This document shows positions 538-12,214 of a stretch of DNA of 17,677 bases, in pieces. The first letter of the stretch is position 1. The number at the start of each line of letters is the position of its first letter. The notes under the pieces are model-generated. The model saw only the letters and a program-made list of their open reading frames with translations, did not search any database and was not told the DNA's origin. The DNA comes from a virus. The position numbers and the translations under genes are program-made. The stretch is from the UHGV virus genome UHGV-0132791. One strand, 5' to 3'.

Positions 538-813
538 ATGTCTGTATATACAACCGCAGAATTACTGGCATCGACCCAGCATCACTTTAAGTTCGATCCG
601 CTGTTTCTGCGCCTGTTTTTCCGTGAAACCTATCCTTTCACCACGGAGAAAGTCTATCTCTCACAAATTCCGGGACTGGTAAACATGGCGCTGTACGTTT
701 CGCCGATTGTTTCCGGTGAGGTTATCCGATCCCGTGGCGGCTCCACCTCTGAATTTACGCCGGGTTATGTCAAACCCAAGCACTTAGCATGGCTTTCTGA
801 GGCTTTCGTGTAG
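538..813 (+). pseudogene. E: Major capsid protein gpE, 5' fragment (codons 1-82), interrupted by insertion; ends in 9 element-encoded codons and a stop
   Basis: Translation MSVYTTAELLA…FKFDPLFLRLFFRE.YPFTTEKVYLSQIPGLVNMALYVSPIVSGEVIRSRGGSTSEFTPGYVKPKH matches the lambda gpE N-terminus; similarity stops after codon CAC (781-783), followed by LAWLSEAFV* (TAG 811-813). Confidence 0.9.
773..782 (+). repeat. Left copy of 10-bp att core / target duplication (AACCCAAGCA)
   Basis: Exact 10-bp identity with 11397-11406, located exactly at the E breakpoint. Confidence 0.75.
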
Positions 814-892
814 TTGCTGGTTTTTACACTTAATCTTTTGATAATAAAGAATAAGTTTATCTGGTGCTTTCACTGAATTTTCCTCGTTATCT

Positions 893-930
893 GTGTGTTG
901 CAATCATCTCTGTATTGCAGCTTGTATTGC
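893..930 (+). repeat. Cluster of TGT(A/G)TTGCA direct repeats (candidate integrase arm-type sites), left end
   Basis: TGTGTTGCAA (895-904) and TGTATTGCAGCTTGTATTGC (911-930); a near-identical 20-mer (one mismatch) recurs at 11300-11319 near the right end. Confidence 0.5.
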
Positions 931-945
931 TTTTTGGGGCTAAAA

Positions 946-2181
946 ATGGCTGGCGAGAACAAACTGAGCGACAAAGCGCTTAAAGGATATCTGGGGAAAC
1001 CCAGAGAAAAGCAGATCACCATTGCTGATGGAAAGGGGCTTTCTATTCGTGTGAGTACTAAAGGGGCTGTGAGCTTTGTTTTCTTCTACAGGTTAGCAGG
1101 TGGCCGGGCTGCTCCGGTCTGGCTAACGTTGGGTAAATATCCTGATATGTCACTCAAACAGGCAAGGGAAAAGCGCGACGAGTGCCGTGGTTGGTTGGCT
1201 GACAAACGTGATCCGCGTATCCAGATTAAGATTCAGGCTGAAGAACGCTTAAAGCCGGTCACAGTGGAGGATGCACTAAATTACTGGTATGAAAATTACT
1301 GTAAGGTGCGTCGTAAAACTCATGCTGTAACGCTTGGCAGATTTCGAAAGCATATCTTTCCCTATATCGGTCATTTGCCCGTAAATGACACTCACCTATA
1401 TGAATGGCTGGACTGTTTTGACCGAATTAAACGTAATGCACCAGTTATGGCGGCGTATGTTTTTTCTGACACTAAATTAGCTCTTCGTTTTTGTCGGGTA
1501 CGCCAGTACGCGACGTGTGATGCTTTAAAGGATTTGCGCATGAGTGATGTGGGGCAGATTGCAGGTAAGCGGGATCGGGTTCTGGATGAAGCCGAACTCG
1601 GCCAGCTCTGGAAGGCAATTTTTGTCGAGCCTGATTTAAAACTAATGTCTGAATACACGCGAAAAATGTTTGTGCTTTGTACAGTATTTGGATGTCGAAT
1701 GAGTGAAGCCCGATTATCAGAATGGAGCGAATGGGATCTCGAAAGTTGGGTTTGGACTGTACCAAAAGATCACTCAAAAACTGGTGTTGAAATCGTCAGA
1801 CCAGTACCTGAAATTCTACGACAGTGGGTAACGGATGTTCACGAAGAGACAAAACATACTGGTTATGTGCTGGGAAGTCTGCGAATTAGAGAAAGCGTAA
1901 GCAAGATTGGGGGGAAAATCGGTAAACGTTTGGGCCATGAAAAACAATGGTCACTACACGACCTTAGAAGAACGCTATCTACTCATCTAAGTGATCTCGG
2001 TGTTGAATTTTATGTAGTAGAACAACTGTTAGGCCATGCGCTACCTGGCGTGGCAGGTGTTTACAACCGGAGTAAGTTTATGGCTAAAAAACTGGATGCT
2101 CTGGAACTCTGGACTACATATCTCAATAGCATCGCAGGTGCTGATTCAAAAGTGACAATCCTCAAACAAAAGGTTGGTTAA
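946..2181 (+). CDS. int: Tyrosine site-specific integrase, P4-like family
   Basis: ATG at 946 preceded by GGGG; N-terminal arm-binding-type region (…LSDKALKGY…DGKGLSIRVSTKGAVSFVFFYR…WLTLGKYPDMSLKQAR) and C-terminal catalytic motifs (LHDLRRT…LLGHA…GVYNRS). The ORF track starts at a GTG at 895; the ATG at 946 is preferred. Confidence 0.9.
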   Translation: MAGENKLSDKALKGYLGKPREKQITIADGKGLSIRVSTKGAVSFVFFYRLAGGRAAPVWLTLGKYPDMSLKQAREKRDECRGWLADKRDPRIQIKIQAEERLKPVTVEDALNYWYENYCKVRRKTHAVTLGRFRKHIFPYIGHLPVNDTHLYEWLDCFDRIKRNAPVMAAYVFSDTKLALRFCRVRQYATCDALKDLRMSDVGQIAGKRDRVLDEAELGQLWKAIFVEPDLKLMSEYTRKMFVLCTVFGCRMSEARLSEWSEWDLESWVWTVPKDHSKTGVEIVRPVPEILRQWVTDVHEETKHTGYVLGSLRIRESVSKIGGKIGKRLGHEKQWSLHDLRRTLSTHLSDLGVEFYVVEQLLGHALPGVAGVYNRSKFMAKKLDALELWTTYLNSIAGADSKVTILKQKVG

Positions 2182-2410
2182 CATGAAAAAAATGGCAATT
2201 GTTGATAAAAAGGGTCTGGAGTACATTCCTAACATTGACCGAATGATCCGTGAGAAAGAATGTCGGGAGCTAACCACTCTTGCGAACAGCACACGCTGGA
2301 AGCTGGAGAAGGAAGGAAAATTTCCTAAGCGGATCAAGATTGGTTCCACTGCTGTTGCATATCGTCTTTCAGAAGTGCAGGCATGGATTCGAGGTGAGTG
2401 GGTAGTTTAA
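2174..2410 (+). CDS. alpA: AlpA-family HTH protein (putative excisionase / transcriptional activator)
   Basis: Small ORF overlapping the int stop; …LTTLANSTRWKLEKEGKFPKRIKIGSTAVAYRLSEVQAWI is typical of the AlpA/Xis HTH family. ORF-track start is a TTG at 2174; the first ATG is at 2183. Confidence 0.7.
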   Translation: MVNMKKMAIVDKKGLEYIPNIDRMIREKECRELTTLANSTRWKLEKEGKFPKRIKIGSTAVAYRLSEVQAWIRGEWVV

Positions 2411-2435
2411 ATTATCTCAGAATAAAATATTATGA

Positions 2436-2471
2436 ATTACTGATTTGAGAATTTGTACTCAAATCAGTAAT
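2436..2471. terminator. 14-bp perfect inverted repeat between convergent genes (possible bidirectional terminator)
   Basis: ATTACTGATTTGAG (2436-2449) / loop 8 nt / CTCAAATCAGTAAT (2458-2471), between the alpA stop (2410) and the stop of the minus-strand gene (2480). AT-rich stem with no clean T-run, so weak. Confidence 0.35.
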
Positions 2472-2479
2472 AACATTCT

Positions 2480-3016
2480 TTATAAGAGATTAAATCCAAA
2501 TAAAGAGTAATCATATACCGGGGTGCATTGCATCCCACTGAATATGCTGATGTTTTTTTCTGTTTCTATCCTTTTTTCAATAAGTTGTTGTATATTTTTA
2601 CAGTACAATTTGTGTGTGATGTTATTATCGTAAGCCTGATATAGCAACGTCAATGTTGATGCTATGAAACATGCAGAAAGAAAATGAACTAGTACATGTG
2701 AGCGTTTTTTGGTTGTCCATGATGCATTCGCTTGTGAAATATAAATCATTCTGAGAATGATAATGATGATAGACAGTAACAGACCACTCAATAAAATAAG
2801 TATTGGGTTTGCGTATTTAATTAATGGTTGAGAGCAAAAAACTATTATAGCTCCTGTGACTGCGTATGAGAAAAAGGAGTAATTAAACTTCTTACTCCTT
2901 CTCTCAAGTATTTTAATTTCATCTTGTGTGGGGGGTTTAGATGCCTCCAATATAAGTTTATTAAATGTTTCTGTTATCTTGTTTTTTGTGTTTTTGGCTA
3001 TTTTTTTTAGATTCAT
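2480..3016 (-). CDS. Small membrane protein (two predicted hydrophobic helices), function unknown; AT-rich cargo gene
   Basis: 178-aa ORF with hydrophobic stretches (…AVTGAIIVFCSQPLIKYANPILILLSGLLLSIIIIILRMIYI… and …HVLVHFLSACFIASTLTLLYQAY…); visibly lower GC than its neighbours; GGAG-like SD upstream of the ATG (rc of 3014-3016). Confidence 0.6.
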   Translation of the reverse strand: MNLKKIAKNTKNKITETFNKLILEASKPPTQDEIKILERRSKKFNYSFFSYAVTGAIIVFCSQPLIKYANPILILLSGLLLSIIIIILRMIYISQANASWTTKKRSHVLVHFLSACFIASTLTLLYQAYDNNITHKLYCKNIQQLIEKRIETEKNISIFSGMQCTPVYDYSLFGFNLL

Positions 3017-3366
3017 AGCATTCTAACTCCCTTAACTTATTTATTACTTTCTCTTTATGATAAGAGAGGGGAATGACTTGGTAAAGTGATTTGTCATTAA
3101 TAATGATAATCCTTGCGATAAATATTTCTGCAAGTTATTTACCTGTTTGTTGCTATCTTGTTAAGCGTTGGGTGTGGTTTATGTTTGGAGCGACTTTATT
3201 TAATCGTGATTTTATGGATTTATATTTATATCCTGTAAGATAAGCGCATGTTAGTTCAGGAGTAGTGTCAGATAAAATTATTCGGAGTAGAACTACCTTT
3301 TCTGTTTATTGCCAGTATTTACATAGCAATGCGCCGTAGTTACTCACATCACGGCGCTGATACTAA

Positions 3367-3669
3367 TTATTCAGATTCTTTGGCTTTACGCCGCTGGAGT
3401 TCTTCACGAGCGACGGCTACGAGTTGCCCGATTTCCTCCGCTGCCTTGATGCCGATTTGTTCGACCTTAGCTAAGGCATCCAGTGAAGACACGAGGGGAT
3501 TTTCTCCGCTTCCTTCTGCCTGGCGGCGGGCGATCTCACCGCGCATGGCGGTTACTATGAATCCGGCGTTGCTTTCGCCGTCCAGTTTTACGGATTCCAT
3601 GCCCTCCATAACATCGTGGGGAACCCTGATCGTTGTCATTTGCGATTTTGCATTTTTGTATACAGACAT
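3367..3669 (-). CDS. Putative ribbon-helix-helix (Arc/CopG-like) transcriptional regulator; candidate element repressor
   Basis: 100-aa ORF; the N-terminus has an RHH-like pattern (β-strand TTIRVPHDV, helix, G-E-S-N turn, helix AGFIVTAMRGEIARR); transcribed divergently from the main element operon across a repeat-bearing intergenic region. Confidence 0.55.
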   Translation of the reverse strand: MSVYKNAKSQMTTIRVPHDVMEGMESVKLDGESNAGFIVTAMRGEIARRQAEGSGENPLVSSLDALAKVEQIGIKAAEEIGQLVAVAREELQRRKAKESE

Positions 3670-3877
3670 AGTTAATCACCAATTTGTTATGTGTATATCA
3701 CTATACACAAAAGTGAGATATAAAAACACTTGCAATGTATATCACCACAATATAATGTATATCTCATATTATGGTCGCTATGTATCTCACAATGATCGAT
3801 TCATAAAAACGACGAAACCCGGCAGTGCGCGAACACTAACCGGGCTTCTAACCAAACCGTTAAACGAGGTAACGATT
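3670..3877. promoter_or_regulatory. Divergent promoter/operator region with four ATGTATATC(A/T)C-type direct repeats
   Basis: TGTATATCAC at 3692-3701 and 3736-3745, TGTATATCTC at 3756-3765, TGTATCTCAC at 3781-3790; AT-rich; lies between the RHH gene start (3669) and the first gene of the plus-strand operon (3878). Confidence 0.5.
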
Positions 3878-4243
3878 ATGGCTGGAACACAGCATACCCA
3901 AACTCACCCTAAATTTATATACACCTTTCTGGCACTACACCACGACCGCATGGCAGATGGAGCAACTACGGTACATGTTGCCGCTGACACGCTGGTTGAT
4001 GCCCGCAAGATGGTTAAGGAGATGGGCTATACTGCGGCTTTCTGGAAAGGGCGTGAAGAAAACACGCTGTTTATTCAGAAATGCGAAAACAATTTCATCT
4101 GGCGTTTTATCGCCCTGAGCACCGCACAACCACGCGTAATACACATCGAGGCCGCCAGCGAACAGGAAGCCCGCCAACAATCCCCAACTGGCTGCGTGAT
4201 GATATTCGCCGCCCGTATTCGTCAGGAGGTATGCCGTGCTTAA
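3878..4243 (+). CDS. Hypothetical protein (first gene of element early operon)
   Basis: ATG at 3878 with GAGG 9-12 nt upstream. The ORF-track ORF 3329..4243 extends upstream antisense to the RHH gene; that extension is judged spurious. Confidence 0.55.
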   Translation: MAGTQHTQTHPKFIYTFLALHHDRMADGATTVHVAADTLVDARKMVKEMGYTAAFWKGREENTLFIQKCENNFIWRFIALSTAQPRVIHIEAASEQEARQQSPTGCVMIFAARIRQEVCRA

Positions 4244-4421
4244 AACCTTCCGTGTATTTGCTCGTGCGGTTAACCCACTAGGCCACACAATTGGTATCGC
4301 TCAGAACGTGAAGGCTGTTAATGTTCAGACGGCTATTGCTGCGGTGAGAAGCGAATCATCAGAATATGGCTTATCACAAGTCATTATTTCAGCAGTGTAT
4401 GAATTAAAAGAGGTGCATTAA
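4236..4421 (+). CDS. Hypothetical small protein
   Basis: GTG start at 4236 preceded by a strong AGGAGG (4224-4229); overlaps the upstream stop; 61 aa. Confidence 0.45.
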   Translation: MLKTFRVFARAVNPLGHTIGIAQNVKAVNVQTAIAAVRSESSEYGLSQVIISAVYELKEVH

Positions 4422-4612
4422 TGCAGGAAATTACATTACACGAAGCCGCTGAACGTGCGCACCAGACAGAAATTATTTGCCGCCTTCTTGAGGTATACCC
4501 GAACAAAATTACAGATGCTGATATATCCGCACTGGCGAGCCTACTGGCGCGTCTTTCGGGAAGTGTCGCTAGTTTTTTGATTGAGGAAGAAAGTAAGCTG
4601 GTGGGGGATTAA
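4421..4612 (+). CDS. Hypothetical small protein
   Basis: ATG overlapping the upstream stop (TAATG at 4419-4423), AGAGG SD; 63 aa. Confidence 0.5.
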   Translation: MQEITLHEAAERAHQTEIICRLLEVYPNKITDADISALASLLARLSGSVASFLIEEESKLVGD

Positions 4613-4834
4613 ATGAATACAGAACGGGAAGTCTTTTTTAAATTGTTAGCATGTGCAGAAAGTTCATTAACTTTAAATAATTCAGCAAAAGCAATATTAA
4701 ATATGTGGCTTGATTGCATAAATGACAATGAAGATGCAAATATTGCTTATGGCCTGTTGTCACTTATTGATGAAGCAGCAGAAAAACTCAATGACGCAAT
4801 AAATAGTGCCCTGCTATCAAATAAGTCGAGTTAA
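4613..4834 (+). CDS. Hypothetical small protein (AT-rich)
   Basis: ATG immediately after the preceding stop; 73 aa; lower GC than flanking genes. Confidence 0.45.
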   Translation: MNTEREVFFKLLACAESSLTLNNSAKAILNMWLDCINDNEDANIAYGLLSLIDEAAEKLNDAINSALLSNKSS

Positions 4835-4851
4835 GTCGAGGAATAAATAAT

Positions 4852-5151
4852 ATGGAAATGAAAAATTCTGGCTTTATTGCCAGCGGCCCCGCTCGGCCTG
4901 AATTTATGAACGGCGATATTTACCGCGATAAATACGGCGGCACGGTAACGATTAAAGGCGTGGCAGAACGGCGCATTACTTACCGCCGTGAGGGGTATAG
5001 CTATGACTGCGTGATGCCTGTTTATCAGTTCCGGCGTGATTTTTCCCTGGTATATGCCGCACCCCGCAGTAAGCCCATCAGCAGGGAAAAAGCGCGGGGA
5101 AACATCCAGAAAATGAAAAGCATGATTAACGCATTCAGGGGCAAAAAATGA
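4852..5151 (+). CDS. Hypothetical protein
   Basis: 99-aa ORF with GAGG SD; its stop overlaps the pri-rep start (ATGA at 5148-5151). Confidence 0.5.
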   Translation: MEMKNSGFIASGPARPEFMNGDIYRDKYGGTVTIKGVAERRITYRREGYSYDCVMPVYQFRRDFSLVYAAPRSKPISREKARGNIQKMKSMINAFRGKK

Positions 5152-6899
5152 AACTGGCACCGAACTTAAAAAAACAGCCACGCGACAGACTGACAGAGGT
5201 AATCATCTTTGCAGGTAGTGATGCGTGGAGCCATGCGAAAGAGTGGCAGGAATGGGCGGGTAAACATATTGCCGCCGACGATGTGCCGCCTGTCGTGCTG
5301 GCTGATGAGCAACTGAAAAATATCACCGATTACCGGATCATTGATGAAGATCGTCAGTGTGTGCGTGTTTACCGCGCAGGACATATCACAGAGCACAGCA
5401 TGACGCAGATTGTTACGTTATTGGCTGTGGCTGGAGTGAAGACCGTACACGAATACGCGGGGATTACTGACACCAGCCCCGTGGATTTATCCGACCAGTT
5501 GCCGCGACTCAAAGAGGAATGCGAGCGTGGGGAAAGTCTGGTGCTTAATCTTCCGACGAAGCAAAAGGCGCAACTTTCACAGATGGCAGACAGTGAACGT
5601 GCACAACTACTTGCCGATCGCTTTGATGGTGTGTGTGTTCATGCAGAAAGTGAAATCGTCCACGTATGGCGCGGCGGGGTATGGTGTCCGGTCAGCACAA
5701 TGGAGCTGAGCCGCGAAATGGTGGCGATCTATTCAGAGCACAGGGCCACATTCAGCAAGCGTGCAATTAATAACGCCGTGGAGGCGTTAAAAGTTATTGC
5801 CGACCCCATGGGGGAGCCGTCCGGTGATTTGCTACCGTTCGCCAATGGTGTGCTTGACCTGAAAACGGGGGAATTTTCCCCGCACTCGCCGGAGAACTGG
5901 ATCACCACGCACAACGGCATTGAGTACACGCCACCAGCACCAGGGGAGAACATCCGCGACAACGCGCCAAACTTTCATAAATGGCTTGATCACGCAGCCG
6001 GAAAAGACCCGCGCAAGATGATGCGTATATGTGCCGCGCTGTACATGATTATGGCGAACCGGTACGACTGGCAGATGTTTATTGAGGCCACCGGAGAGGG
6101 CGGTAGCGGTAAAAGTACATTCACACACATAGCCAGCCTTCTGGCAGGGAAACAGAACACGGTAAGCGCTGAAATGACATCGCTTGATGATGCTGGTGGA
6201 CGTGCGCAGGTTGTCGGGAGTCGTCTTATCGTCCTGGCTGACCAGCCGAAATATACAGGCGAAGGCACGGGCATCAAGAAAATCACGGGCGGCGACCCCG
6301 TGGAAATAAACCCGAAATATGAAAAGCGTTTTACGGCGGTAATCAGGGCGGTGGTGCTGGCTACCAACAATAACCCGATGATATTCACCGAACGGGCCGG
6401 AGGTGTGTCACGTCGTCGCGTAATTTTCCGCTTCGACAATATCGTTAGCGAGGCAGAAAAGGACAAGGATTTACCGGAGAAGGTCGCGGCTGAAATCCCC
6501 GTGATTATCCGCAGATTGCTGGCAAACTTTGCTGATCCAGAAAAGGCGCGACATTTGTTGATTGAACAGCGCGACGGTGAAGAAGCACTGGCGATAAAGC
6601 AACAGACGGATCCGGTTATTGAGTTTTGCCAGTTTCTGAATTTTCTGGAGGAAGCGCGCGGCCTGATGATGGGTGGCGGTGGCGATTCCGTGAAGTACAC
6701 GACCAGAAACAGCCTTTACCGCGTCTATCTGGCGTTTATGGCATACGCAGGCAGAAGCAAGCCGCTAAACGTGGCTGATTTCAGCAAGGCCATGAAGCCA
6801 GCGGCGAAAGTTTACGGATGTGAATATATAACGCGCAGGGTTAAAGGACTTACGCAAACCAATGTGACAACAACAGAGGATTGCGACGCGTTTTTATAA
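5148..6899 (+). CDS. Replication initiator, primase-helicase type (P4 alpha C-terminal / PICI Pri-Rep-like SF3 ATPase)
   Basis: 583 aa; Walker A GEGGSGKST (6093-6119), Walker B-like LIVLAD; overall pattern of the phage/plasmid primase P4-family C-terminal domain; followed directly by an iteron array. Confidence 0.85.
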   Translation: MKLAPNLKKQPRDRLTEVIIFAGSDAWSHAKEWQEWAGKHIAADDVPPVVLADEQLKNITDYRIIDEDRQCVRVYRAGHITEHSMTQIVTLLAVAGVKTVHEYAGITDTSPVDLSDQLPRLKEECERGESLVLNLPTKQKAQLSQMADSERAQLLADRFDGVCVHAESEIVHVWRGGVWCPVSTMELSREMVAIYSEHRATFSKRAINNAVEALKVIADPMGEPSGDLLPFANGVLDLKTGEFSPHSPENWITTHNGIEYTPPAPGENIRDNAPNFHKWLDHAAGKDPRKMMRICAALYMIMANRYDWQMFIEATGEGGSGKSTFTHIASLLAGKQNTVSAEMTSLDDAGGRAQVVGSRLIVLADQPKYTGEGTGIKKITGGDPVEINPKYEKRFTAVIRAVVLATNNNPMIFTERAGGVSRRRVIFRFDNIVSEAEKDKDLPEKVAAEIPVIIRRLLANFADPEKARHLLIEQRDGEEALAIKQQTDPVIEFCQFLNFLEEARGLMMGGGGDSVKYTTRNSLYRVYLAFMAYAGRSKPLNVADFSKAMKPAAKVYGCEYITRRVKGLTQTNVTTTEDCDAFL

Positions 6900-6904
6900 T
6901 TTTA

Positions 6905-7145
6905 GACAAAAGCCCTCTACCTCCTCTACCTAAAGAAAATAAATATATATTATTCAATATGATAAGAAGGTAGAGGGTCAGGTAGAAGGCAAATAAAAGC
7001 CCTCTACCTCCTCCACCATGATTAAGGTCATTTGTGAGGGGCGGGTAGAGGATGGGTAGAGGGCCCCGAAAGCCCTCTACCCATCTGAAAGCCGCGCCAT
7101 TACTGACCTGAAAGATGATTAGGTAGAGAGGTAGAGGAGGTGCAC
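6905..7145. repeat. Iteron array / putative element replication origin
   Basis: About 11 copies of CCTCTACC / GGTAGAGG in both orientations (e.g. 6913-6930, 6969-6989, 6999-7017, 7043-7063, 7073-7082, 7122-7140), including the inverted pair GGGTAGAGGGC…GCCCTCTACCC (7054-7082), flanking an AT-rich stretch (6931-6968); immediately 3' of the replication gene. Confidence 0.7.
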
Positions 7146-7185
7146 CACATTTCAAAACTTTTTAAACGAGGGGGTAAAAATAAAA

Positions 7186-7443
7186 ATGCACACATCAGGA
7201 AAACTGAACAAACATATAAAGCCACATTACCGCGCCCTTGATATGGCTGAACATTGGCTAAGGGTGGCGATTAAGGCAATAGATCGCAACGCCGGGGAAG
7301 GATACGCGAAAGCACATCCCGAACTGATAAGCGCATTCATGACAACGGCGGCTGCAAACTTTGCCACGCTGACCGAACGGGAGATTGCCGAAGCGGAGGA
7401 AGTGACAACCATCAATATTAAGTCCGGAGAGCAGGCAGCTTGA
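7186..7443 (+). CDS. Hypothetical protein
   Basis: 85-aa ORF, ATG at 7186 preceded by GAGGGGG; stop overlaps the start of the next gene. Confidence 0.5.
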   Translation: MHTSGKLNKHIKPHYRALDMAEHWLRVAIKAIDRNAGEGYAKAHPELISAFMTTAAANFATLTEREIAEAEEVTTINIKSGEQAA

Positions 7444-7850
7444 CGGCGCAAATAGCAGCTTACGGGCGGCTGGTGGACGACCCACAGGTAAAACATACCA
7501 GCAAGGGAGCACCCATGACACTGGCACGGATGACGGTATCTTTGCCATGCAGCCAGGCAGATGACGGAACGGCGACGATGTGGTTATCTGTCCTGGCGTT
7601 TGGCAGACAAGCCGACGCGCTGGCAAAGCATCACAAAGGCGAACTCCTGAGCGTGGCGGGTAATATGCAGGTGAGCCAGTGGAGCGGACAGAACGGTGAA
7701 ACGCGGCAGCGCTGGCAGGTTATCGCAGACAGCGTAATCAGTGCGCGAACGGTGCGACCTGGCGGGAACAGACGTAAAACCACAGGCACACAGGGCAACA
7801 CACCACCAGCGGGAGGGGATGATCTCTACGGTGACAATATTCCATTCTGA
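7440..7850 (+). CDS. ssb: Single-stranded DNA-binding protein (SSB-like, OB fold)
   Basis: Pattern resembling E. coli SSB (…GRLVDDPQV…, …WLSVLAFGRQADALAKHHKGELLSVAGNMQVSQWSGQNGETRQRWQVIAD…) and a C-terminal tip …DNIPF like the SSB DDDIPF tail. Start is a TTG at 7440 overlapping the upstream stop; exact start uncertain. Confidence 0.7.
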   Translation: MTAQIAAYGRLVDDPQVKHTSKGAPMTLARMTVSLPCSQADDGTATMWLSVLAFGRQADALAKHHKGELLSVAGNMQVSQWSGQNGETRQRWQVIADSVISARTVRPGGNRRKTTGTQGNTPPAGGDDLYGDNIPF

Positions 7851-7858
7851 ACGCACAG

Positions 7859-7878
7859 GCCGGAGAAATCCGGCTTTT
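7859..7878 (+). terminator. Rho-independent terminator downstream of ssb
   Basis: GCCGGA (7859-7864) / GAAA / TCCGGC (7869-7874) followed by TTTT (7875-7878). Confidence 0.6.
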
Positions 7879-8114
7879 ATCAGTTGAGTCCGTCACACCA
7901 CGCAAAAAAAAGGCCGGAATATTCCGACCCTTTCATCACCAAAGAGAATAATTTATGTCTTTGAACTTGTAACGCTGTACAGAATGACACGTAACGCCGG
8001 ATAAATAAACGAAGATTGAAACTTTGCACAATATTGCATAGCAATGCATAAAGATGCCGATCAAGGCAGATGATAAAATTAATACGACACTTTTACTAAG
8101 TATTAAGAGGTTAT

Positions 8115-9155
8115 ATGAGTGATTTATATTCGCCAGCGGAGTTAATACAGACTGTTAATGCTGAAGATATTCAATGGCAGATTAACTCTTTATTTATAAA
8201 CCTGTTTTTTAAGCGAGTCGTTACATTTGAGACGCGGGATATTGCGCTTGATATTATTGACGATCCAGACATCCCGATGGCTGCATTTTGTTCCCCTATG
8301 GTTGGTAGTAAAGTATCACGCGATGAAGGCTACGAATCAAAAGTAATTCGCCCTGGCTACATGAAGCCAAAAAGTAGTATAGACCCAAATAAAATAGCCG
8401 TTCGTCAACCAGGCGTATCACCGGAACAATTCAATGCATATTCATCACGCAATTTCAAAATAAAGCGAGCGATGGTAAGACAAGCGCAGGCCATTCGCGC
8501 ACGTATTGAATGGCTTGCTGTTCAGGCAATCACAACGGGGAAAAATATCATTGAGGGCGATGGCATTGAACGTTATGAACTGGACTGGAATATAAAACCA
8601 CAAAATATTATCACGCAGTCCGGCGGCACGGAGTGGAGCGGTAGAGATTTATCAACATTTGATCCAAATGATGACATCGAAGAGTACGCAGAAATCAGCG
8701 AAGGGACTACAAATATCATCGTAATGGGACGCAACGTATGGAAAAAATACCGCGCCTTTAAAGCAGTAAAAGATTGCCTTGATACTCGACGGGGATCTAA
8801 TTCCGTTCTTGAAACGGCCCTGAAAAATCTTGGGGATTCCGTCAGTTTTAAGGGTTACGTAGGCGATGTGGCTATTGTTGTGTATAGCGGACGTTATACC
8901 GACGAGGACGGAACAGAAAAATATTTCCTTGATCCTGATTTGATGGTTCTTGGCAATACATCACTTCAGGGCATCGTTGCATACGGTGGCATTCAGGATC
9001 CGGAGCTAATCCGAATGGGGCTGACTAAAGCCGAACTCGCACCGAAAAACTACATTGTGCCTGGAGATCCGGCTATTGAGTACGTACAAACGCACTCTGC
9101 ACCACAGCCAATACCGGCCCGCATCAATCGTTTTGTTACCGTTCGCATTGGTTAA
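8115..9155 (+). CDS. Element-encoded major capsid protein, lambda gpE paralogue
   Basis: 346 aa; clearly homologous but divergent from gpE (shared blocks PGYMKPK, ITQSGGTEWS.RD.ST.DP.DDIEEYA, KAVKD.LDTRRGSNS.LETA.K.LG..VS.KGY.GDVAIVVYSG.Y, MVLGNT); strong SD AAGAGG. Confidence 0.9.
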   Translation: MSDLYSPAELIQTVNAEDIQWQINSLFINLFFKRVVTFETRDIALDIIDDPDIPMAAFCSPMVGSKVSRDEGYESKVIRPGYMKPKSSIDPNKIAVRQPGVSPEQFNAYSSRNFKIKRAMVRQAQAIRARIEWLAVQAITTGKNIIEGDGIERYELDWNIKPQNIITQSGGTEWSGRDLSTFDPNDDIEEYAEISEGTTNIIVMGRNVWKKYRAFKAVKDCLDTRRGSNSVLETALKNLGDSVSFKGYVGDVAIVVYSGRYTDEDGTEKYFLDPDLMVLGNTSLQGIVAYGGIQDPELIRMGLTKAELAPKNYIVPGDPAIEYVQTHSAPQPIPARINRFVTVRIG

Positions 9156-9164
9156 GGGGGAGCA

Positions 9165-9506
9165 ATGGCTACTCATTACACTGAACTCATGGCTGGCACT
9201 GAAGCACTGGTTACTACGTTGGGGATATTTTCAGCTAATAAAGGGGTAATTCCTGCATTTACGCCACTGATGCAAGAAGATGCAACTGGTGCACTGGTGG
9301 TATGGGATGGAACGAGCGCAGGCAAAGCTGTTTATGTTTCCGCTGTACAAATCGATACAGCGACAAAAACGCAGGCTCAGGTTTATAAAACCGGCGTCTT
9401 AAATGTTGATGCTCTGAACTGGCCTGAGTCTGTAACACAACTATCAGCAAAAGTTGCTGCGTTTGTTGGCTCAGGTATTTCTGTTCAGCCGCTGGCACGT
9501 GTGTGA
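9165..9506 (+). CDS. Element-encoded head decoration protein, lambda gpD paralogue
   Basis: 113 aa; gpD-like blocks (TPLM…LVVWDGT…YKTG…WPE…) and length; immediately downstream of the capsid paralogue, with SD AAGGGGGAG. Confidence 0.8.
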   Translation: MATHYTELMAGTEALVTTLGIFSANKGVIPAFTPLMQEDATGALVVWDGTSAGKAVYVSAVQIDTATKTQAQVYKTGVLNVDALNWPESVTQLSAKVAAFVGSGISVQPLARV

Positions 9507-9515
9507 GGTACGAGA

Positions 9516-9860
9516 ATGATTGAAAGAGATAGTCAGCTACGAGAGCTATTAGATATCGATGACAAAATGCGCTTAAGCGAGCGTCTTGTCGATATGAATC
9601 AGGTGATGGAACTTACAACCCTGAGTCGCCGTACACTGCTAAACCTTGAGGCTCGTGGAGAGTTCCCTGAGCGTGTGCAGGTTACGGAAGGGCGTAAGGC
9701 TTGGTATTTAAGCGAGGTTGTTGAGTGGATTAACAATATCCCGCGAGCATCAAACTATTGCCTCGTACCCACACCGGAAAAACCTGATGCGGCGTTATGC
9801 CTCAAGATTGAACGCGCCAGGCGTAATGCCCTGAAAGGGCGCAATAAGTTGATTGGTTGA
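9516..9860 (+). CDS. Second AlpA-family HTH regulator
   Basis: 114 aa; …MNQVMELTTLSRRTLLNLEARGEFPERVQVTEGRKAWYLSEVVEWI… is AlpA/HTH_17-like; located between the decoration gene and the cos site. Confidence 0.7.
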   Translation: MIERDSQLRELLDIDDKMRLSERLVDMNQVMELTTLSRRTLLNLEARGEFPERVQVTEGRKAWYLSEVVEWINNIPRASNYCLVPTPEKPDAALCLKIERARRNALKGRNKLIG

Positions 9861-9868
9861 TGAAATTA

Positions 9869-9895
9869 GGGCCCGCTCTGGCTGGCGGGTCCTTT
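9869..9895 (+). terminator. GC-rich hairpin plus short T run after second AlpA-like gene
   Basis: GGGCCCGC (9869-9876) / 8-nt loop / GCGGGTCC (9885-9892) with one G·U pair, followed by TTT. Confidence 0.35.
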
Positions 9896-9913
9896 CCGGC
9901 AATCCGGCAGACT

Positions 9914-9950
9914 ACGGGGCGGAAGGCGCGCGGGTTTTCGCTATTTATGA
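9914..9950. other. cos-like site (cosN region) of the element
   Basis: ACGGGGCGGAAGGCGCGCGGGTTTTCGCTATTTATGA: flanks match the lambda cos left-end sequence as I recall it (…ACGGGGCGGCGACCTCGCGGGTTTTCGCTATTTATGA…), but the central hexamer differs (AAGGCG vs CGACCT); lies about 150 bp upstream of the Nu1-like TerS, as in lambda. Confidence 0.6.
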
Positions 9951-10076
9951 GCATTTTTAGGGGACTGGTGGTGGTTTTGTTGTTCGCTATATCTGTATGA
10001 ATAATAAGAGAAAAACACAATCAACACACCAACCTGAAACAGTAATTAAGTTGTGGTATCAATGAAATTGCACCTG

Positions 10077-10604
10077 ATGAACAAAAAAAACATGGCAAAA
10101 AGTTGCCGTGTAAGCGCCACTGCGTTCGATAAGTGGGGAGTGATTCCCGTCGAGCGTAAGGGCCGCGAGGCGTTTTATGATGTCGCCAGTGTAATAGATA
10201 ATCGGGTTAACAATGCAATCAGCCAGATTACAAACGAAACGGGCGAGATTGATGATGATGAACTCCTACGAGTCAGGATCAGATTGCTGACAGCACAGGC
10301 AGAGGCGCAGGAGCTTAAAAACGAGCGCGAACGCGGCGACGTTATTGATACAGCGTTTTGTATATACGTGCTTTCAAAACTGGCGAGTCAGATTTCTTCA
10401 ATCATGGACAGCCTGCCGCTTGCCATGACAAGGAAGTTTCCCGACATGAAGCCGTCTATGCTGGATGGACTGAAAAAAGAAGTTATCAGAGCCTGTAACG
10501 CATGCGCAAAACTTGACGAAAACATACCGCTGATGCTGTCCGATTATCTGATGGAAACTGCCGGAAACGTACCGGATAAGTTGCAGCTGAATAAAGATAA
10601 GTAA
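10077..10604 (+). CDS. Terminase small subunit, lambda Nu1-like
   Basis: Homology to lambda Nu1 (MNKKNMAKS…YDVASVID…LLTAQAEAQELKNERERGDVIDTAFCIYVLSKLASQISSIMDSLPLAMTRKFPDMK vs Nu1 …LTRAQADAQELKNARDSAEVVETAFCTFVLSRIAGEIASILDGLPLSVQRRFPELE). ORF track begins at a GTG at 10053; ATG 10077 is chosen by alignment with the Nu1 N-terminus. Confidence 0.85.
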   Translation: MNKKNMAKSCRVSATAFDKWGVIPVERKGREAFYDVASVIDNRVNNAISQITNETGEIDDDELLRVRIRLLTAQAEAQELKNERERGDVIDTAFCIYVLSKLASQISSIMDSLPLAMTRKFPDMKPSMLDGLKKEVIRACNACAKLDENIPLMLSDYLMETAGNVPDKLQLNKDK

Positions 10605-10615
10605 CGTAGTACGCT

Positions 10616-10897
10616 ATGACTGAATCCGAAATACTGCGATTAATCCGCCGTGCTTGTGGAATCAGCAAGCAGCATGACGAACAGGCCACGCAGCCGGACA
10701 GCGTGATCGCCGAAAATTACGCGCGTGTTGTTGCTGATGTGATGCGCCGTGATGGTATTGAGCTTAACGGCGTGGATATGCGCGACATACGGATCAGATT
10801 CCTTGAGTTGCTGGCATACCGTCGCCGTTCTCAACAACGAAGGGAGAGCGCGAAAAACACTTATCAGTGGAAGAAGCCGGAACGGTTGCGGCGGTAG
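10616..10897 (+). CDS. Hypothetical basic protein downstream of TerS
   Basis: 93-aa ORF, ATG at 10616 twelve nt after the TerS stop; no recognisable similarity to terminase large subunit. Confidence 0.45.
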   Translation: MTESEILRLIRRACGISKQHDEQATQPDSVIAENYARVVADVMRRDGIELNGVDMRDIRIRFLELLAYRRRSQQRRESAKNTYQWKKPERLRR

Positions 10898-11235
10898 ATT
10901 CCTGATATTCAGGAAAACCACGAATCCGGGGGTTTACTGGCGCGGTTACGGCGGTGACACACACCGAGGCAGAACAATTACCGTAGGTTAAAGCGACAGT
11001 ATTCACACCAAAGGCAGAAATTAGCTGTTAACGTAACTGACTGATATTTTCGGGAACAGCCAACGGCTGAGGCCGGAGCTATAAAAATAGCTTTGGGTAC
11101 AGTCCTCAGTTTTGAGGGATGTTAACCAACTGAATAATAAGCAAACCTCAAAATTGAGTTTTGTATCTGCCTGAGTTATTTCTGTGCTAACTTGCTGATA
11201 TTCCCGATAACGCAAAATTGCGTTGGCTGGTGGGT

Positions 11236-11255
11236 GAGTTGCAGATCTGCAACTC
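11236..11255. repeat. 20-bp perfect palindrome GAGTTGCAGATCTGCAACTC near right end of element
   Basis: Exact dyad symmetry over 20 bp, about 140 bp inside the right att core; contains the TTGCA motif shared with the arm-type repeats. Confidence 0.6.
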
Positions 11256-11299
11256 GGCTATGAAACTTAATAATCGAACAGCATGTAAATTCATTTCTG

Positions 11300-11320
11300 T
11301 GTATTGCAGCATGTATTGCA
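11300..11320 (+). repeat. TGTATTGCAGCATGTATTGCA direct repeats (candidate arm-type sites), right end
   Basis: Matches 911-930 (TGTATTGCAGCTTGTATTGC) with one mismatch, in the same orientation, about 77 bp inside the right core. Confidence 0.5.
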
Positions 11321-11396
11321 ACATAGTCATTCTGGTAGAGATTATGCTCTATTTTTCCTCTTATATCATTCACATACTTACGTCATTGACTCATGT

Positions 11397-11406
11397 AACC
11401 CAAGCA
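11397..11406 (+). repeat. Right copy of 10-bp att core / target duplication (AACCCAAGCA)
   Basis: Identical to 773-782; preceded by an in-frame TAA (11396-11398) that ends the element-side frame. Confidence 0.75.
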
Positions 11407-12187
11407 TGAGGTGAATCCGCAGATGACCCTGCGTCGCCTGCCGGATGAAGATCCGCAGAACCTGGCTGACCCGGCTTACCGTCGTCGCCGTATTATTCGG
11501 CAGAATATGCTGGATGAAAATCTGGCGATTGCCCAGGTCGAAGAGATGCAGGCAGTTTCTGCCGTGCTTAAGGGCAAATATACCATGACCGGTGAAGCCT
11601 TCGATCCGGTTGAGGTGGATATGGGCCGCAGTGAGGCGAATAACATCACGCAGTCCGGCGGCACGGAGTGGAGCAAGCGTGACAAGTCCACGTATGACCC
11701 GACCGACGATATCGAAGCCTACGCGCTGAACGCCAGCGGTGTGGTGAATATCATCGTGTTCGATCCGAAAGGCTGGGCGCTGTTCCGTTCCTTCAAAGCC
11801 GTCAAGGAGAAGCTGGATACCCGTCGCGGCTCTCATTCCGAGCTGGAGACAGCGGTAAAAGACCTGGGCAAAGCGGTGTCCTATAAGGGAATGTATGGCG
11901 ATGTGGCCATCGTCGTGTATTCCGGACAGTACGTGGAAAACGGCGTCAAAAAGAACTTCCTGCCGGACAACACGATGGTGCTGGGGAACACTCAGGCTCG
12001 CGGTCTGCGCACCTATGGCTGCATTCAGGATGCGGACGCACAGCGCGAAGGCATTAACGCCTCTGCCCGTTACCCGAAAAACTGGGTGACCACCGGCGAT
12101 CCGGCGCGTGAGTTCACCATGATTCAGTCAGCACCGCTGATGCTGCTGGCTGATCCTGATGAGTTCGTGTCCGTACAACTGGCGTAA
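11399..12187 (+). pseudogene. E: Major capsid protein gpE, 3' fragment (codons ~80-341), separated from its 5' part by the insertion
   Basis: Translation PKHEVNPQMTLRRLPDEDPQNLADPAYRRRRII…DEFVSVQLA* matches the lambda gpE C-terminal 260 residues almost exactly; there is no start codon or RBS of its own at the homology boundary (the ORF track starts at an internal GTG at 11411). Confidence 0.9.
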
Positions 12188-12189
12188 TC

Positions 12190-12214
12190 ATGGCCCTTCG
12201 GGGCCATTTCTCTC
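12190..12214 (+). terminator. Hairpin between E and FI (ATGGCCC-TTCG-GGGCCAT) followed by T-rich tract
   Basis: 7-bp stem with 4-nt loop at 12190-12207, then TTCTCTC; likely an attenuator-type structure inside the late operon. Confidence 0.35.

What the first reader, a model, noticed from the sequence alone, without database searches (positions are those of the whole stretch)
3670..3877. Divergent control region with four ATGTATATCAC-type operator-like repeats
Between the minus-strand RHH regulator gene and the plus-strand element operon lies an AT-rich 208-bp region carrying four direct repeats of a 10-mer (3692-3701, 3736-3745, 3756-3765, 3781-3790). Layout and repeat spacing fit a repressor-controlled bidirectional switch like the Stl/Str region of PICIs or a phage immunity region.
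Basis: partly seen in the sequence, partly recalled or inferred. Interest (0 to 1): 0.55.

Follow-up and report, generated by a model that had tools for sequence, protein, structure and literature searches.

The report
PICI repressor operators plus antisense RNA
The AT-rich gap between two divergent genes of a phage satellite holds five evenly spaced binding sites for the satellite's own small ribbon-helix-helix regulator, placed over both promoters, followed by a small antisense RNA gene; this makes it a candidate for the repressor switch not yet identified in Gram-negative phage-inducible islands.

Summary
The four repeats are real, and they are more than chance. A fifth, inverted copy at 3713-3722 was missed. 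The five sites lie 21-23 bp apart and overlap a predicted rightward promoter (-35 TTGCAA 3730-3735, -10 TAATGT 3753-3758). They also bracket a predicted leftward -10 (3700-3705).

In 29 related loci from at least eight genera the layout stays the same, but the repeated word changes. The word changes together with residues 10-14 of the divergent YlcI/YnfO-family protein, which is its predicted ribbon-helix-helix beta-strand. The same allele carries the same word across genera. Identical AlpA or Icd-like proteins occur with different words. Within the window's allele group, 86% of site columns are invariant against 28% of other columns.

The right third of the interval (about 3803-3883) is something else. 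It is a covariation-supported two-hairpin RNA on the minus strand, antisense to the Shine-Dalgarno sequence and AUG of the Icd-like gene. It resembles SymR but scores below the Rfam threshold.

The element is a known helper-embedded Gram-negative PICI (11capE type). No paper in the searchable library describes this regulator or its operators, and the model PICI EcCICFT073 carries the same module.

Verdict: a real operator array with a repressor and an antisense RNA, functionally closest to P22 immI. It is a new member of a known kind. Binding and promoters are inferred, not shown.

The parts
3367..3669 (-). Gene for a 100-aa YlcI/YnfO-family protein. Predicted N-terminal ribbon-helix-helix domain (beta-strand about residues 9-16, helices 18-27 and 34-54) followed by a long C-terminal helix 58-99. 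Proposed operator-binding repressor.
   Evidence: - NCBIfam NF041551: 70.5 bits against a cut-off of 30.
- phrog_6522.
- AF2 model, pLDDT 82.
- Residues 10-14 are hypervariable between the invariant S9 and R15-x-P17.
3692..3701 (+). Operator site O1, TGTATATCAC. It abuts the predicted leftward -10.
3700..3705 (-). Predicted -10 of the leftward (ylcI) promoter: TATAGT on the minus strand. It lies inside the box TATACAC(A)AAA, which is conserved in all specificity classes.
   Evidence: The box is conserved across all alleles while the flanking operator words change. The function is inferred. The consensus scan found no promoter.
3713..3722 (-). Operator site O2, the inverted copy (GTGAGATATA = reverse complement of TATATCTCAC).
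   Evidence: I8, I10. Invariant in Yersinia, Enterobacter and E. coli relatives of the same allele.
3730..3735 (+). Predicted -35 of the rightward promoter (TTGCAA; TTGAC/TTGAT/TTGAA in relatives).
   Evidence: Sits at a conserved position in every relative, 17 bp upstream of a TAnnnT hexamer. Inferred.
3736..3745 (+). Operator site O3, TGTATATCAC. It fills the first 10 bp of the promoter spacer.
3753..3758 (+). Predicted -10 of the rightward promoter (TAATGT).
   Evidence: A conserved TAnnnT lies 17 bp from the -35 in all relatives. It is a weak match to consensus and was not found.
3756..3767 (+). Operator site O4. It overlaps the end of the -10 and the expected transcription start.
3781..3790 (+). 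Operator site O5, TGTATCTCAC, about +15 to +25 of the rightward transcript.
   Evidence: A fifth site lies at the same offset in most specificity classes.
3803..3883 (-). Candidate cis-antisense small RNA of about 80 nt with two stem-loops. The anti-SD sequence CCUC sits in loop 1. The 3' GC-rich stem is followed by UUUCGUCGUUUUU. It is complementary to the 5' UTR, the SD (GAGG 3866-3869) and the AUG of the Icd-like gene.
   Evidence: - Rfam SymR RF01809: 35.3 bits, E 8.7e-5, below the gathering score of 61. The same hit appears at the same place in Xenorhabdus and Yersinia loci.
- Consensus fold is -26.9 kcal/mol with 23 pairs on the minus strand, against -11.0 with 13 pairs on the plus strand.
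- 95.6% of cells are paired, 13 pairs show compensatory changes, and 0/500 shuffles reach this.
- There are 53 G-U cells that would be A-C on the plus strand. Window MFE is -33.9 against -19.8.
3891..3896 (-). Predicted -10 of the antisense RNA promoter. It reads TATGCT on the minus strand; relatives have TGgTATAAT or TGgTATGAT at the same distance from the start codon.
   Evidence: Inferred only.
3878..4243 (+). First gene of the rightward operon, a 121-aa Icd-like protein. It is followed by small ORFs, a DUF4222 gene and the D5-type primase (5148-6899).
   Evidence: NCBIfam NF033153, 77 bits. Pfam and PHROGs. RefSeq annotation of the near-identical locus L001.

Best explanation
The interval is a compound control region of a Gram-negative phage-inducible chromosomal island.

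**Part 1, operator array (about 3685-3795).**
- It holds five ~10-bp sites (consensus TRTATMTCAC, frame TG-N5-CA), spaced about two helical turns apart.
- Dimers of the divergently encoded YlcI/YnfO-family ribbon-helix-helix protein recognise the sites through the N-terminal beta-strand. The long C-terminal helix probably bridges neighbouring dimers.
- O3 and O4 occupy the spacer and the -10/start of the rightward promoter, which drives the Icd-like to primase operon. O5 lies just downstream of them.
- O1 and O2 bracket the -10 of the regulator's own promoter.
- Occupancy should therefore shut off the replication operon and autoregulate the repressor.

**Part 2, antisense RNA (about 3803-3883).** This stretch encodes an ~80-nt minus-strand RNA that pairs with the SD and AUG of the Icd-like gene. 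It adds a post-transcriptional block on the first gene, which is probably toxic.

**What is shown:**
- the repeats and their non-randomness;
- conservation of the architecture;
- word/allele co-variation;
- the footprint;
- strand-specific RNA covariation.

**What is inferred:**
- DNA binding by this protein;
- the sign of regulation;
- the promoter positions;
- expression of the RNA;
- how the block is lifted. Possibilities are AlpA, a helper antirepressor, or read-through from the helper late operon.
For: 1. **Non-random cluster.**
2. **Fixed frame, changing word.**
   - In 29 relatives from E. coli, Yersinia, Enterobacter, Xenorhabdus, Photorhabdus, Erwinia, Serratia, Phytobacter and metagenomes, sites lie at offsets of about 22/46/66/90/112 from the regulator's start codon. 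The conserved -35, -10 and TATACAC boxes keep their places.
   - The repeated word differs by class: MTT(I/L/V)R -> TGTATATC; LTTVR -> TGTGTTTC; SLTAR -> TGTAAGAC; QISIR -> TGTGATTC; (M/L/V)KN(I/V)R -> GGTGTGTA; MISTR -> GTGTAG(T/G)C; and so on.
   - Cognate words give 4-6 sites per region. Non-cognate words give 0-1.
3. **Same allele, same word across genera.** The window's word is kept in Yersinia and Enterobacter. TGTGTTTC is kept in E. coli and in Xenorhabdus/Photorhabdus.
4. **Footprint within the window's allele group.** 43/50 site columns are invariant against 13/46 other columns (Fisher p = 8e-9).
5. **Where the protein varies.** Variation is concentrated at residues 10-14, next to the invariant R15-x-P17, in register with Arc's base-reading strand.
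6. **Fold.** The predicted fold is RHH.
7. **Controls.** AlpA is identical in the window, L001 and L006, yet L006 has different words. The N-terminal 50 residues of the Icd-like protein are identical in the window and L010 (the whole gene region is 94.9% identical in DNA), yet the operators and regulator differ.
8. **Antisense RNA.**
Against: - There is no experimental binding or transcript data.
- The consensus promoter scan found no sigma-70 site in 3300-4300. The proposed -10 hexamers are weak.
- Sequence-level evidence for RHH is weak:
  - no Pfam family above threshold;
  - PF07704 only sub-threshold;
  - hhalign probability 5% against Arc and 0.5% against Mnt;
  - Foldseek found nothing useful.
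- The variable N-terminal codons lie only about 22 bp from the variable operators. Part of the allele/word correlation could therefore reflect inheritance of one mosaic block. The internal repetition and the footprint argue against that being the whole story.
- Site orientation differs between classes, and a spacing of about 22 bp is unusual for RHH proteins.
- In EcCICFT073, AlpA overexpression alone induced excision and replication (PMC6092414). Any repressor must therefore be overridable. That island's homologue lacks the C-terminal helix.
Confidence: 0.7

Rival explanations
1. The repeats are operators, but for a different protein: AlpA (the known PICI activator), the Icd-like protein (PHROG families 1743 and 6196 label it 'transcriptional repressor'), or a helper-phage regulator.
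For: - AlpA is the only regulator shown experimentally in these islands (PMC6092414).
- PHROG annotation of the Icd-like C-terminal domain.
- The allele/word correlation could partly be linkage.
Against: - AlpA is identical in the window/L001 and in L006, but the words differ.
- The Icd-like N-terminus is identical in the window and L010, but the operators differ.
- A helper-encoded factor would not explain words that track the island's own beta-strand allele across genera.
Confidence: 0.08
2. The YlcI-family protein binds the sites but only autoregulates its own promoter, like an RHH antitoxin or a plasmid CopG-type regulator. The rightward operon would then be controlled mainly by AlpA and the antisense RNA.
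For: - Several relatives have a small ORF immediately downstream of the regulator gene. That layout resembles an antitoxin-toxin pair.
- AlpA alone induces EcCICFT073 (PMC6092414).
Against: - Three of the five sites (O3-O5) lie on or just downstream of the rightward core promoter, not the leftward one. That placement is conserved in all classes.
- The window has no partner ORF of 40 aa or more on the minus strand between 3017 and 3366.
Confidence: 0.1
3. The conserved hairpins at about 3803-3883 act in the plus-strand mRNA leader, not as a separate antisense RNA. They could be a translational operator that sequesters the AUG, a terminator/antiterminator, or the target of a c4/CI-type immunity RNA.
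For: - Watson-Crick covariation fits either strand.
- The SD lies in the loop and the AUG in the stem of the plus-strand hairpin.
- P1 and P4 use same-strand immunity RNAs upstream of icd/eta. C4/isrK hits are reported in some PICIs (PMC10111431).
Against: - 53 G-U cells become A-C on the plus strand, so pairing is 95.6% on the minus strand against 83.9% on the plus strand.
- Consensus energy is -26.9 against -11.0 kcal/mol.
- A U-rich tail follows the stem only on the minus strand.
- The SymR-like match is on the minus strand in three genera.
- There is no C4 or isrK hit, even at E <= 10.
- A conserved -10-like hexamer is correctly placed on the minus strand.
Confidence: 0.15
4. The repeats are replication iterons or a partition (centromere-like) array, or they are chance similarity in AT-rich DNA.
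For: - RHH proteins such as ParG and omega bind repeat arrays.
- PICI origins contain iterons (PMC6092414).
- The region is 29% G+C.
Against: - PICI origins map downstream of pri, not here (PMC6092414, PMC10111431).
- No ParA-type gene was seen among the genes examined here or in the RefSeq annotation of the near-identical element L001.
- The sites coincide with promoter elements.
- Chance is excluded by local shuffles (1/300) and by the footprint.
Confidence: 0.03

Closest known systems
Phage P22 immunity I region (mnt / arc / sar / ant)
   Same: - Small RHH repressors act at operators that overlap divergent promoters.
- A short cis-antisense RNA covers the ribosome-binding region of the controlled gene (described in PMC2629481 and its references 62-68).
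- From my own knowledge: Mnt, like this protein, is an RHH domain followed by a C-terminal helical oligomerisation domain.
   Different: - No detectable sequence relationship (hhalign 5% to Arc, 0.5% to Mnt).
- There is one regulator gene, not two.
- There are five sites about 22 bp apart, not one or two adjacent half-site pairs.
- The controlled genes are Icd-like through primase, not an antirepressor.
- The antisense RNA resembles SymR, not sar.
SymE/SymR of E. coli (Rfam RF01809; PMC1891008)
   Same: - A cis-encoded antisense RNA of about 77-80 nt starts next to the complement of the start codon, covers the SD, and has the same two-hairpin layout.
- The target is a tightly repressed gene that is also under a transcriptional repressor.
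- The full-length model aligns (1-77) at E 8.7e-5.
   Different: - The score is 35-39 bits against a gathering score of 61.
- The target protein is Icd-like, not SymE/AbrB-fold.
- The transcriptional repressor is an island-encoded RHH protein, not LexA.
SaPI / Gram-positive PICI Stl (Rpr)-Str divergent region
   Same: A divergently transcribed regulator lies between the integration module and the replication module of a phage satellite, with operators in the intergenic region (PMC6092414 introduction).
   Different: - Stl/Rpr are described as master repressors paired with a second, divergent regulatory gene. Here the fold is RHH.
- The protein is 100 aa, with no obvious sensor domain.
- The first rightward gene is Icd-like.
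- Derepression by a helper protein is unknown.
- Gram-negative PICIs were described as lacking an identified repressor (PMC6092414).
P1 immI (c4 RNA-icd-ant) and P4 CI RNA immunity
   Same: An icd-type gene at the head of an operon is held off by a small RNA. PICI 'Bro zones' were proposed to carry such immunity RNAs (PMC10111431).
   Different: - Those RNAs are on the same strand as the operon and act on separate target sites.
- No C4 or isrK match here.
- Here the RNA is a true cis-antisense transcript.
Multi-repeat RHH regulators (omega of pSM19035, ParG, CopG, MetJ) - from my own knowledge
   Same: One RHH dimer binds each short repeat. Repeats are tolerated in direct or inverted orientation. 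Arrays overlap promoters.
   Different: Known arrays have contiguous repeats of 7-11 bp. Here the sites are about 22 bp centre to centre, which implies bridging through the C-terminal helix.
EcCICFT073 and 11capE (Gram-negative PICI and helper-embedded PICI)
   Same: - The gene order is the same: int-alpA-[cargo]-ylcI<->icd-like-...-DUF4222-primase-ssb-capsid-decoration.
- The window's element splits a lambda E-type capsid gene exactly as described for 11capE (PMC10111431).
   Different: - Those papers do not describe this regulator, the operators or the antisense RNA.
- EcCICFT073's homologue is a 59-aa form that lacks the C-terminal helix, with a different operator word.

Membership tests
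YlcI/YnfO family (NCBIfam NF041551) | Match to the N-terminal 42-residue model above the curated cut-off | tested here: met
   70.5 bits against a cut-off of 30; residues 8-49 align to model positions 1-42. RefSeq annotates the homologues the same way.
Ribbon-helix-helix (MetJ/Arc) DNA-binding superfamily | An N-terminal beta-strand followed by two helices, similar to solved RHH domains | tested here: met
   - AF2: residues 1-17 extended, helices 18-27 and 34-54.
Ribbon-helix-helix (MetJ/Arc) DNA-binding superfamily | Significant sequence or profile match to an RHH family | tested here: inconclusive
   - No Pfam family above threshold.
- PF07704 matches only sub-threshold, in 39/50 members.
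- hhalign against Arc is in register, but probability is 5%.
Ribbon-helix-helix (MetJ/Arc) DNA-binding superfamily | Dimerisation through the paired beta-strands, and sequence-specific binding to repeated sites | not testable with these tools
   Indirect support only: the beta-strand allele co-varies with the repeated word.
SaPI/PICI Stl (Rpr) master repressor with divergent Str | A divergent pair of regulatory genes (repressor plus a second regulator heading the rightward operon) | tested here: not met
   The rightward operon starts with an Icd-like protein (NF033153). Pfam found no DNA-binding regulator domain in the next small ORFs.
SaPI/PICI Stl (Rpr) master repressor with divergent Str | Derepression by direct binding of a helper-phage protein | not testable with these tools
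   No data.
P22 immI (Mnt/Arc + sar) | Homology of the repressor to Arc or Mnt | tested here: not met
   hhalign probability is 5.3% against Arc and 0.5% against Mnt.
P22 immI (Mnt/Arc + sar) | A cis-antisense RNA over the RBS of the controlled gene | tested here: met
   Strand-specific covariation and energy favour a minus-strand RNA covering the SD and AUG. Expression was not shown.
SymR antitoxin RNA (Rfam RF01809) | Covariance-model score at or above the gathering threshold (61 bits) | tested here: not met
   35.3 bits in the window and 38.4-38.7 bits in Yersinia and Xenorhabdus relatives. The alignments are full length.
C4 / isrK (P1 c4, P4 CI immunity RNAs; Rfam) | Match to the covariance models | tested here: not met
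   No hit at the gathering score in the whole window. No hit at E <= 10 in 3500-4400.
Gram-negative PICI, helper-embedded (11capE type) | int, alpA and primase co-oriented; about 11 kb; inserted in a lambdoid major capsid gene, which it disrupts; carries its own capsid homologue | tested here: met
   - Pfam and PHROGs.
- Annotation of the 98%-identical locus in E. coli 382634_2f.
- The capsid reading frame stops at ...GYVKPKH near 787 and resumes with EVNPQMT near 11407.
- Matches the description in PMC10111431.

The most novel reading that the evidence does not exclude
YlcI/YnfO-family RHH proteins may be the so-far unidentified master repressors, or immunity determinants, of enterobacterial PICIs, including the model island EcCICFT073.

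- They would fall into about a dozen or more largely orthogonal specificity classes. Each class is defined by three to five beta-strand residues and a matching TG-N5-CA operator word.
- This would parallel the immunity types of lambdoid phages.
- They would work together with a SymR-like antisense RNA to keep the Icd-like to primase operon silent until a helper phage is active.
Probability: 0.4. Interest if true: 0.65.

Novelty: new member of a known kind. Interest (0 to 1): 0.45.

Why it matters
**The gap in the published model.** The model for Gram-negative PICIs has an activator (AlpA) but no repressor. [quoted passage not shown] I found no later paper in the searchable library that fills this gap.

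**What this module offers.**
- It is present in the window, in EcCICFT073, and in hundreds of E. coli genomes. Part of the 1-kb region around it matched in 753 of 5,426 complete genomes.
- It gives a concrete, testable candidate: one small protein, five mapped sites, three predicted promoters and one predicted small RNA.
- The natural series of beta-strand alleles with matching operator words works as a specificity code for an uncharacterised RHH family. It could supply orthogonal repressor/operator pairs.
- It may also explain how several related islands could coexist in one cell without cross-regulation.

**Limits.** This is a prediction from sequence comparison. The kind of device, an RHH repressor with an antisense RNA, is already well known from P22.

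Tried and rejected
- **Rfam at gathering thresholds on the whole window:** no hit.
- **Consensus promoter/terminator scan of 3300-4300:** no promoter. The two terminator-like hits lie inside genes. The promoters proposed here rest on cross-locus conservation only.
- **Solved-structure sequence searches:**
  - The single-sequence PDB search found only a chance hit.
  - The profile search gave a weak helix-hairpin-helix match to Hef (E 0.0079). I recorded it but did not build on it.
- **hhalign against Arc and Mnt:** in register but not significant.
- **Literature:**
  - nothing relevant on YlcI/YnfO function;
  - nothing on a repressor of EcCICFT073-type islands;
  - nothing on an antisense RNA at icd-like genes.
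- **Phage collection search:** only short matches to the leader/icd 5' end, in poorly annotated records.
- **Considered and rejected:** AlpA or Icd-like as the binding protein; iterons or a partition site; chance; a plus-strand leader structure (kept as a minor rival).
- **Reading-frame artefact:** the 304-aa ORF at 3329-4243 from the ORF listing comes from an open frame running across the intergenic region.
Full report
**Observation.** The interval 3670-3877 lies between a 100-aa gene on the minus strand (3367-3669) and a plus-strand operon whose first ATG is at 3878.
- TGTATATCAC occurs exactly at 3692 and 3736. It occurs with one mismatch at 3756 and 3781. These are the only four matches at <=1 mismatch in the 17.7-kb window, against 0.78 expected.
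- Shuffling only the 208-bp interval, with dinucleotides preserved, gave four copies of any 10-mer at <=1 mismatch in 1 of 300 trials.
- The repeat finder also reports an inverted copy, GTGAGATATA, at 3713-3722.
- With that copy, and the fourth site read in its best register (3758-3767), the five site centres are 21, 23, 22 and 23 bp apart.
- Only the operator part is strongly AT-rich: 29% G+C for 3685-3795, 48% for 3803-3883.

**Context.** The window holds an ~10.6-kb satellite.
- Its genes, in order, are: integrase (895-2181), AlpA (2174-2410), a 178-aa membrane protein on the minus strand, the regulator gene, an Icd-like gene, small ORFs, DUF4222, a D5-type primase (5148-6899), SSB, a major capsid homologue, a decoration protein, an HTH protein and TerS.
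- A 98%-identical copy in E. coli 382634_2f sits inside the major capsid gene of a lambdoid prophage. In the window the capsid frame stops at ...GYVKPKH near 787 and resumes with EVNPQMT near 11407.
- This is the helper-embedded Gram-negative PICI described as 11capE (PMC10111431). That part is already known.
- That paper, and the founding paper on Gram-negative PICIs, describe AlpA as an activator. [quoted passage not shown]
- Neither paper mentions this regulator or these repeats. Searches for YlcI/YnfO, for a repressor of EcCICFT073, and for an antisense RNA at icd-like genes found nothing relevant.

**The regulator.**
- The 100-aa protein matches the NCBIfam YlcI/YnfO N-terminal model (70.5 bits, cut-off 30). 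It matches no Pfam family above threshold.
- There are 249 homologues across Enterobacterales, and UniRef names some of them 'Arc-like DNA binding domain-containing protein'.
- An alignment of 50 homologues shows a nearly invariant protein, except for residues 10-14. These lie between the invariant S9 and R15-x-P17. They fall into discrete alleles: LTTVR, QISIR, MTTIR (the window), MKNIR, MTTLR, SLTAR, QLNAR and others.
- AlphaFold (pLDDT 82) gives an extended N-terminus, helices 18-27 and 34-54, and a long helix 58-99.
- hhalign places KSQMTTIRVPHDV on Arc's KMPQFNLRWPREV. R15 then corresponds to Arc R13, and residues 11 and 13 to Arc's base-reading Q9 and N11. The match is not significant; the residue roles are from my own knowledge of Arc.
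- I conclude that the fold is RHH with a C-terminal helical extension. The evidence is moderate.

**Comparative test of the operator hypothesis.** I collected 29 related loci, including EcCICFT073:
- nine from complete E. coli genomes;
- eleven from other genera, via a genome scan;
- eight by exact-protein look-up.

All have the same divergent gene pair and the same frame:
- A conserved TATACAC(A)AAA box lies between sites 1 and 2.
- A conserved AAAACAC-TTGnnn follows.
- A 17-bp spacer begins with site 3.
- A TAnnnT hexamer comes next.
- Site 4 follows immediately.
- A fifth site usually lies about 22 bp further on.

Site offsets from the regulator's start codon are about 22/46/66/90/112 in almost every class.

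The repeated word, however, differs by class and tracks the beta-strand allele:

| Beta-strand allele | Operator word |
|---|---|
| MTT(I/L/V)R | TGTATATC / TGTATCTC |
| LTTVR and LFTVR | TGTGTTTC |
| SLTAR | TGTAAGAC |
| QISIR | TGTGATTC |
| (M/L/V)KN(I/V)R | GGTGTGTA |
| MISTR | GTGTAG(T/G)C |
| ALAAR | GTGTAAAC |
| Q(L/I)NAR | GG(T/G)ATTCA |

- Cognate words give 4-6 sites per region and non-cognate words 0-1. Cross-matches occur only between closely related alleles or words.
- The same allele carries the same word in different genera. The window's word and its five-site pattern (+,-,+,+,+) recur in Yersinia enterocolitica, Enterobacter ludwigii and another E. coli lineage. TGTGTTTC recurs in E. 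coli, Xenorhabdus and Photorhabdus.
- Within the window's allele group, 43 of 50 site columns are invariant against 13 of 46 other columns (Fisher p = 8e-9).
- Two controls argue against other proteins. AlpA is identical in the window, L001 and L006, yet L006 uses TGTGTTTC. The N-terminal 50 residues of the Icd-like protein are identical in the window and L010, and the gene region is 94.9% identical in DNA. Yet L010 has a different short regulator and different inverted repeats.
- A caveat: the variable codons are only about 22 bp from the variable DNA, so block inheritance contributes to the correlation. It does not explain the four- to six-fold internal repetition of each word, or the footprint.

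**Mechanism.**
- The rightward promoter is inferred as TTGCAA (3730-3735), 17 bp, TAATGT (3753-3758). O3 fills the spacer next to the -35. O4 overlaps the end of the -10 and the start site. O5 lies at about +15 to +25.
- The leftward -10 is inferred as TATAGT (complement of 3700-3705), flanked by O1 and O2.
- A protein bound at these sites should exclude RNA polymerase from both promoters. This would repress the Icd-like to primase operon and autoregulate the regulator.
- The ~22-bp spacing puts all sites on roughly one face of the helix. It is wider than in known RHH arrays. The conserved C-terminal helix is the obvious candidate for bridging dimers.
- None of this is shown experimentally. 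The consensus promoter scan found nothing in the region, so the promoters rest on conservation alone.

**The right third is an RNA gene.**
- Permissive Rfam scanning gave a full-length but sub-threshold match to SymR on the minus strand at 3811-3883 (35.3 bits, gathering score 61, E 8.7e-5). The same match appears at the same place in Xenorhabdus and Yersinia relatives (38.7 and 38.4 bits).
- Nineteen distinct sequences of this segment fold on the minus strand into two hairpins: 23 pairs, 13 with compensatory changes, -26.9 kcal/mol. The plus strand gives 13 pairs and -11.0 kcal/mol.
- On the named structure, 95.6% of cells pair. No shuffle out of 500, and no slid register, comes close.
- Fifty-three G-U cells would be A-C mismatches on the plus strand, where pairing falls to 83.9%. 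The window's own MFE is -33.9 kcal/mol on the minus strand against -19.8 on the plus strand.
- The 3' hairpin is followed by UUUCGUCGUUUUU on the minus strand only.
- Loop 1 carries CCUC, the complement of the SD. The RNA would begin next to the complement of the start codon, as SymR does relative to symE. SymR is a cis-encoded RNA that represses an SOS-induced toxin (PMC1891008).
- A -10-like hexamer sits at the right distance in all relatives: TATGCT in the window, TGgTATAAT or TGgTATGAT in others.
- I therefore read 3803-3883 as a cis-antisense RNA that blocks translation of the Icd-like gene. A plus-strand leader function remains a minor rival.

**Comparison with known systems.**
- Functionally, the closest is the P22 immunity I region. 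There, RHH repressors (Mnt, Arc) act at divergent promoters, and the sar antisense RNA covers the ribosome-binding region of ant (PMC2629481). There is no detectable sequence homology to Arc or Mnt. The site array and the controlled genes also differ.
- The RNA is SymR-like but fails Rfam's threshold. The C4/isrK immunity RNAs reported for some PICIs are absent here.
- The model island EcCICFT073 carries the same module. Its regulator is shortened to 59 aa: the RHH domain joined to the last eight residues. Its operators read GTGGGCCACACC.

**Verdict.** The region is an ordinary kind of device: a repressor-operator array with an antisense RNA. But it belongs to an uncharacterised protein family, in a class of satellites for which no repressor has been reported. 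It also shows an unusually clear natural series of protein-allele/operator-word pairs. I rate it a new member of a known kind, of moderate interest.

Noticed in passing
window 538-787 and about 11407-12190; element about 788-11410: The satellite sits inside a lambda E-type major capsid gene. The frame stops at ...GYVKPKH and resumes with EVNPQMT. The satellite carries its own capsid (8115-9155) and decoration (9165-9506) homologues. This matches the published helper-embedded PICI '11capE' (PMC10111431), so it is already known.
   Followed up: yes
window 2480-3016 (-); L010 293-1168; L002 22-822; L023, L027, L029; L028: The slot between alpA and the regulator gene holds different cargo in different relatives. 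The window has a 178-aa predicted membrane protein with no family match. L010 has a TIR-domain protein. Others have AntA/AntB or Bro-N proteins. It looks like an accessory or defence hotspot.
   Followed up: partly
L032 8474-8653 (E. coli CFT073, island EcCICFT073): The model PICI's YlcI-family protein is only 59 aa. The RHH domain is joined directly to the last eight residues, so the long C-terminal helix is deleted. Its operators are two direct GTGGGCCACACC copies on the promoter. This may matter for why no repressor phenotype was noticed in that island.
   Followed up: partly
window 3367-3669 (-), protein residues about 45-86: A profile of the family weakly matches the helix-hairpin-helix domain of Hef (PDB 1x2i, E 0.0079). 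I72 and G73 are invariant (LDALAKVEQIGIKAAEEI). AlphaFold nevertheless draws one continuous helix, 58-99. A second, non-specific DNA-binding motif is possible.
   Followed up: no
L034 1165-1281 (phage mEp460_ev081); H28 (Klebsiella phage P12620-1): The same leader hairpins, followed by a truncated icd-like start (MAGIQHNQTHPKLT*), occur unannotated in a lambdoid phage. A ~75% match occurs in a 106-kb Klebsiella phage. The antisense-RNA/icd 5' module is therefore not confined to satellites.
   Followed up: partly
L020 1907-2049: A strong isrN small-RNA match (152.7 bits, gathering score 44) lies about 1 kb from the regulator gene in one relative. That record is titled Martelella alba but has enterobacterial-type content. 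There is no counterpart in the window.
   Followed up: no
L017 and L019 (Xenorhabdus vietnamensis contig NZ_MUBJ01000038.1): Two copies of the module with the same beta-strand allele (LTTVR) lie in opposite orientation within about 5 kb on one 16.6-kb contig. Elements of the same specificity class can therefore sit side by side, which complicates a simple 'orthogonal immunity' picture.
   Followed up: no
window 3329-4243 (+): The mechanical ORF list shows a 304-aa ORF that runs antisense through the regulator gene and across the intergenic region, in frame with the Icd-like gene. It is an artefact. The annotated and conserved start is ATG 3878.
   Followed up: yes
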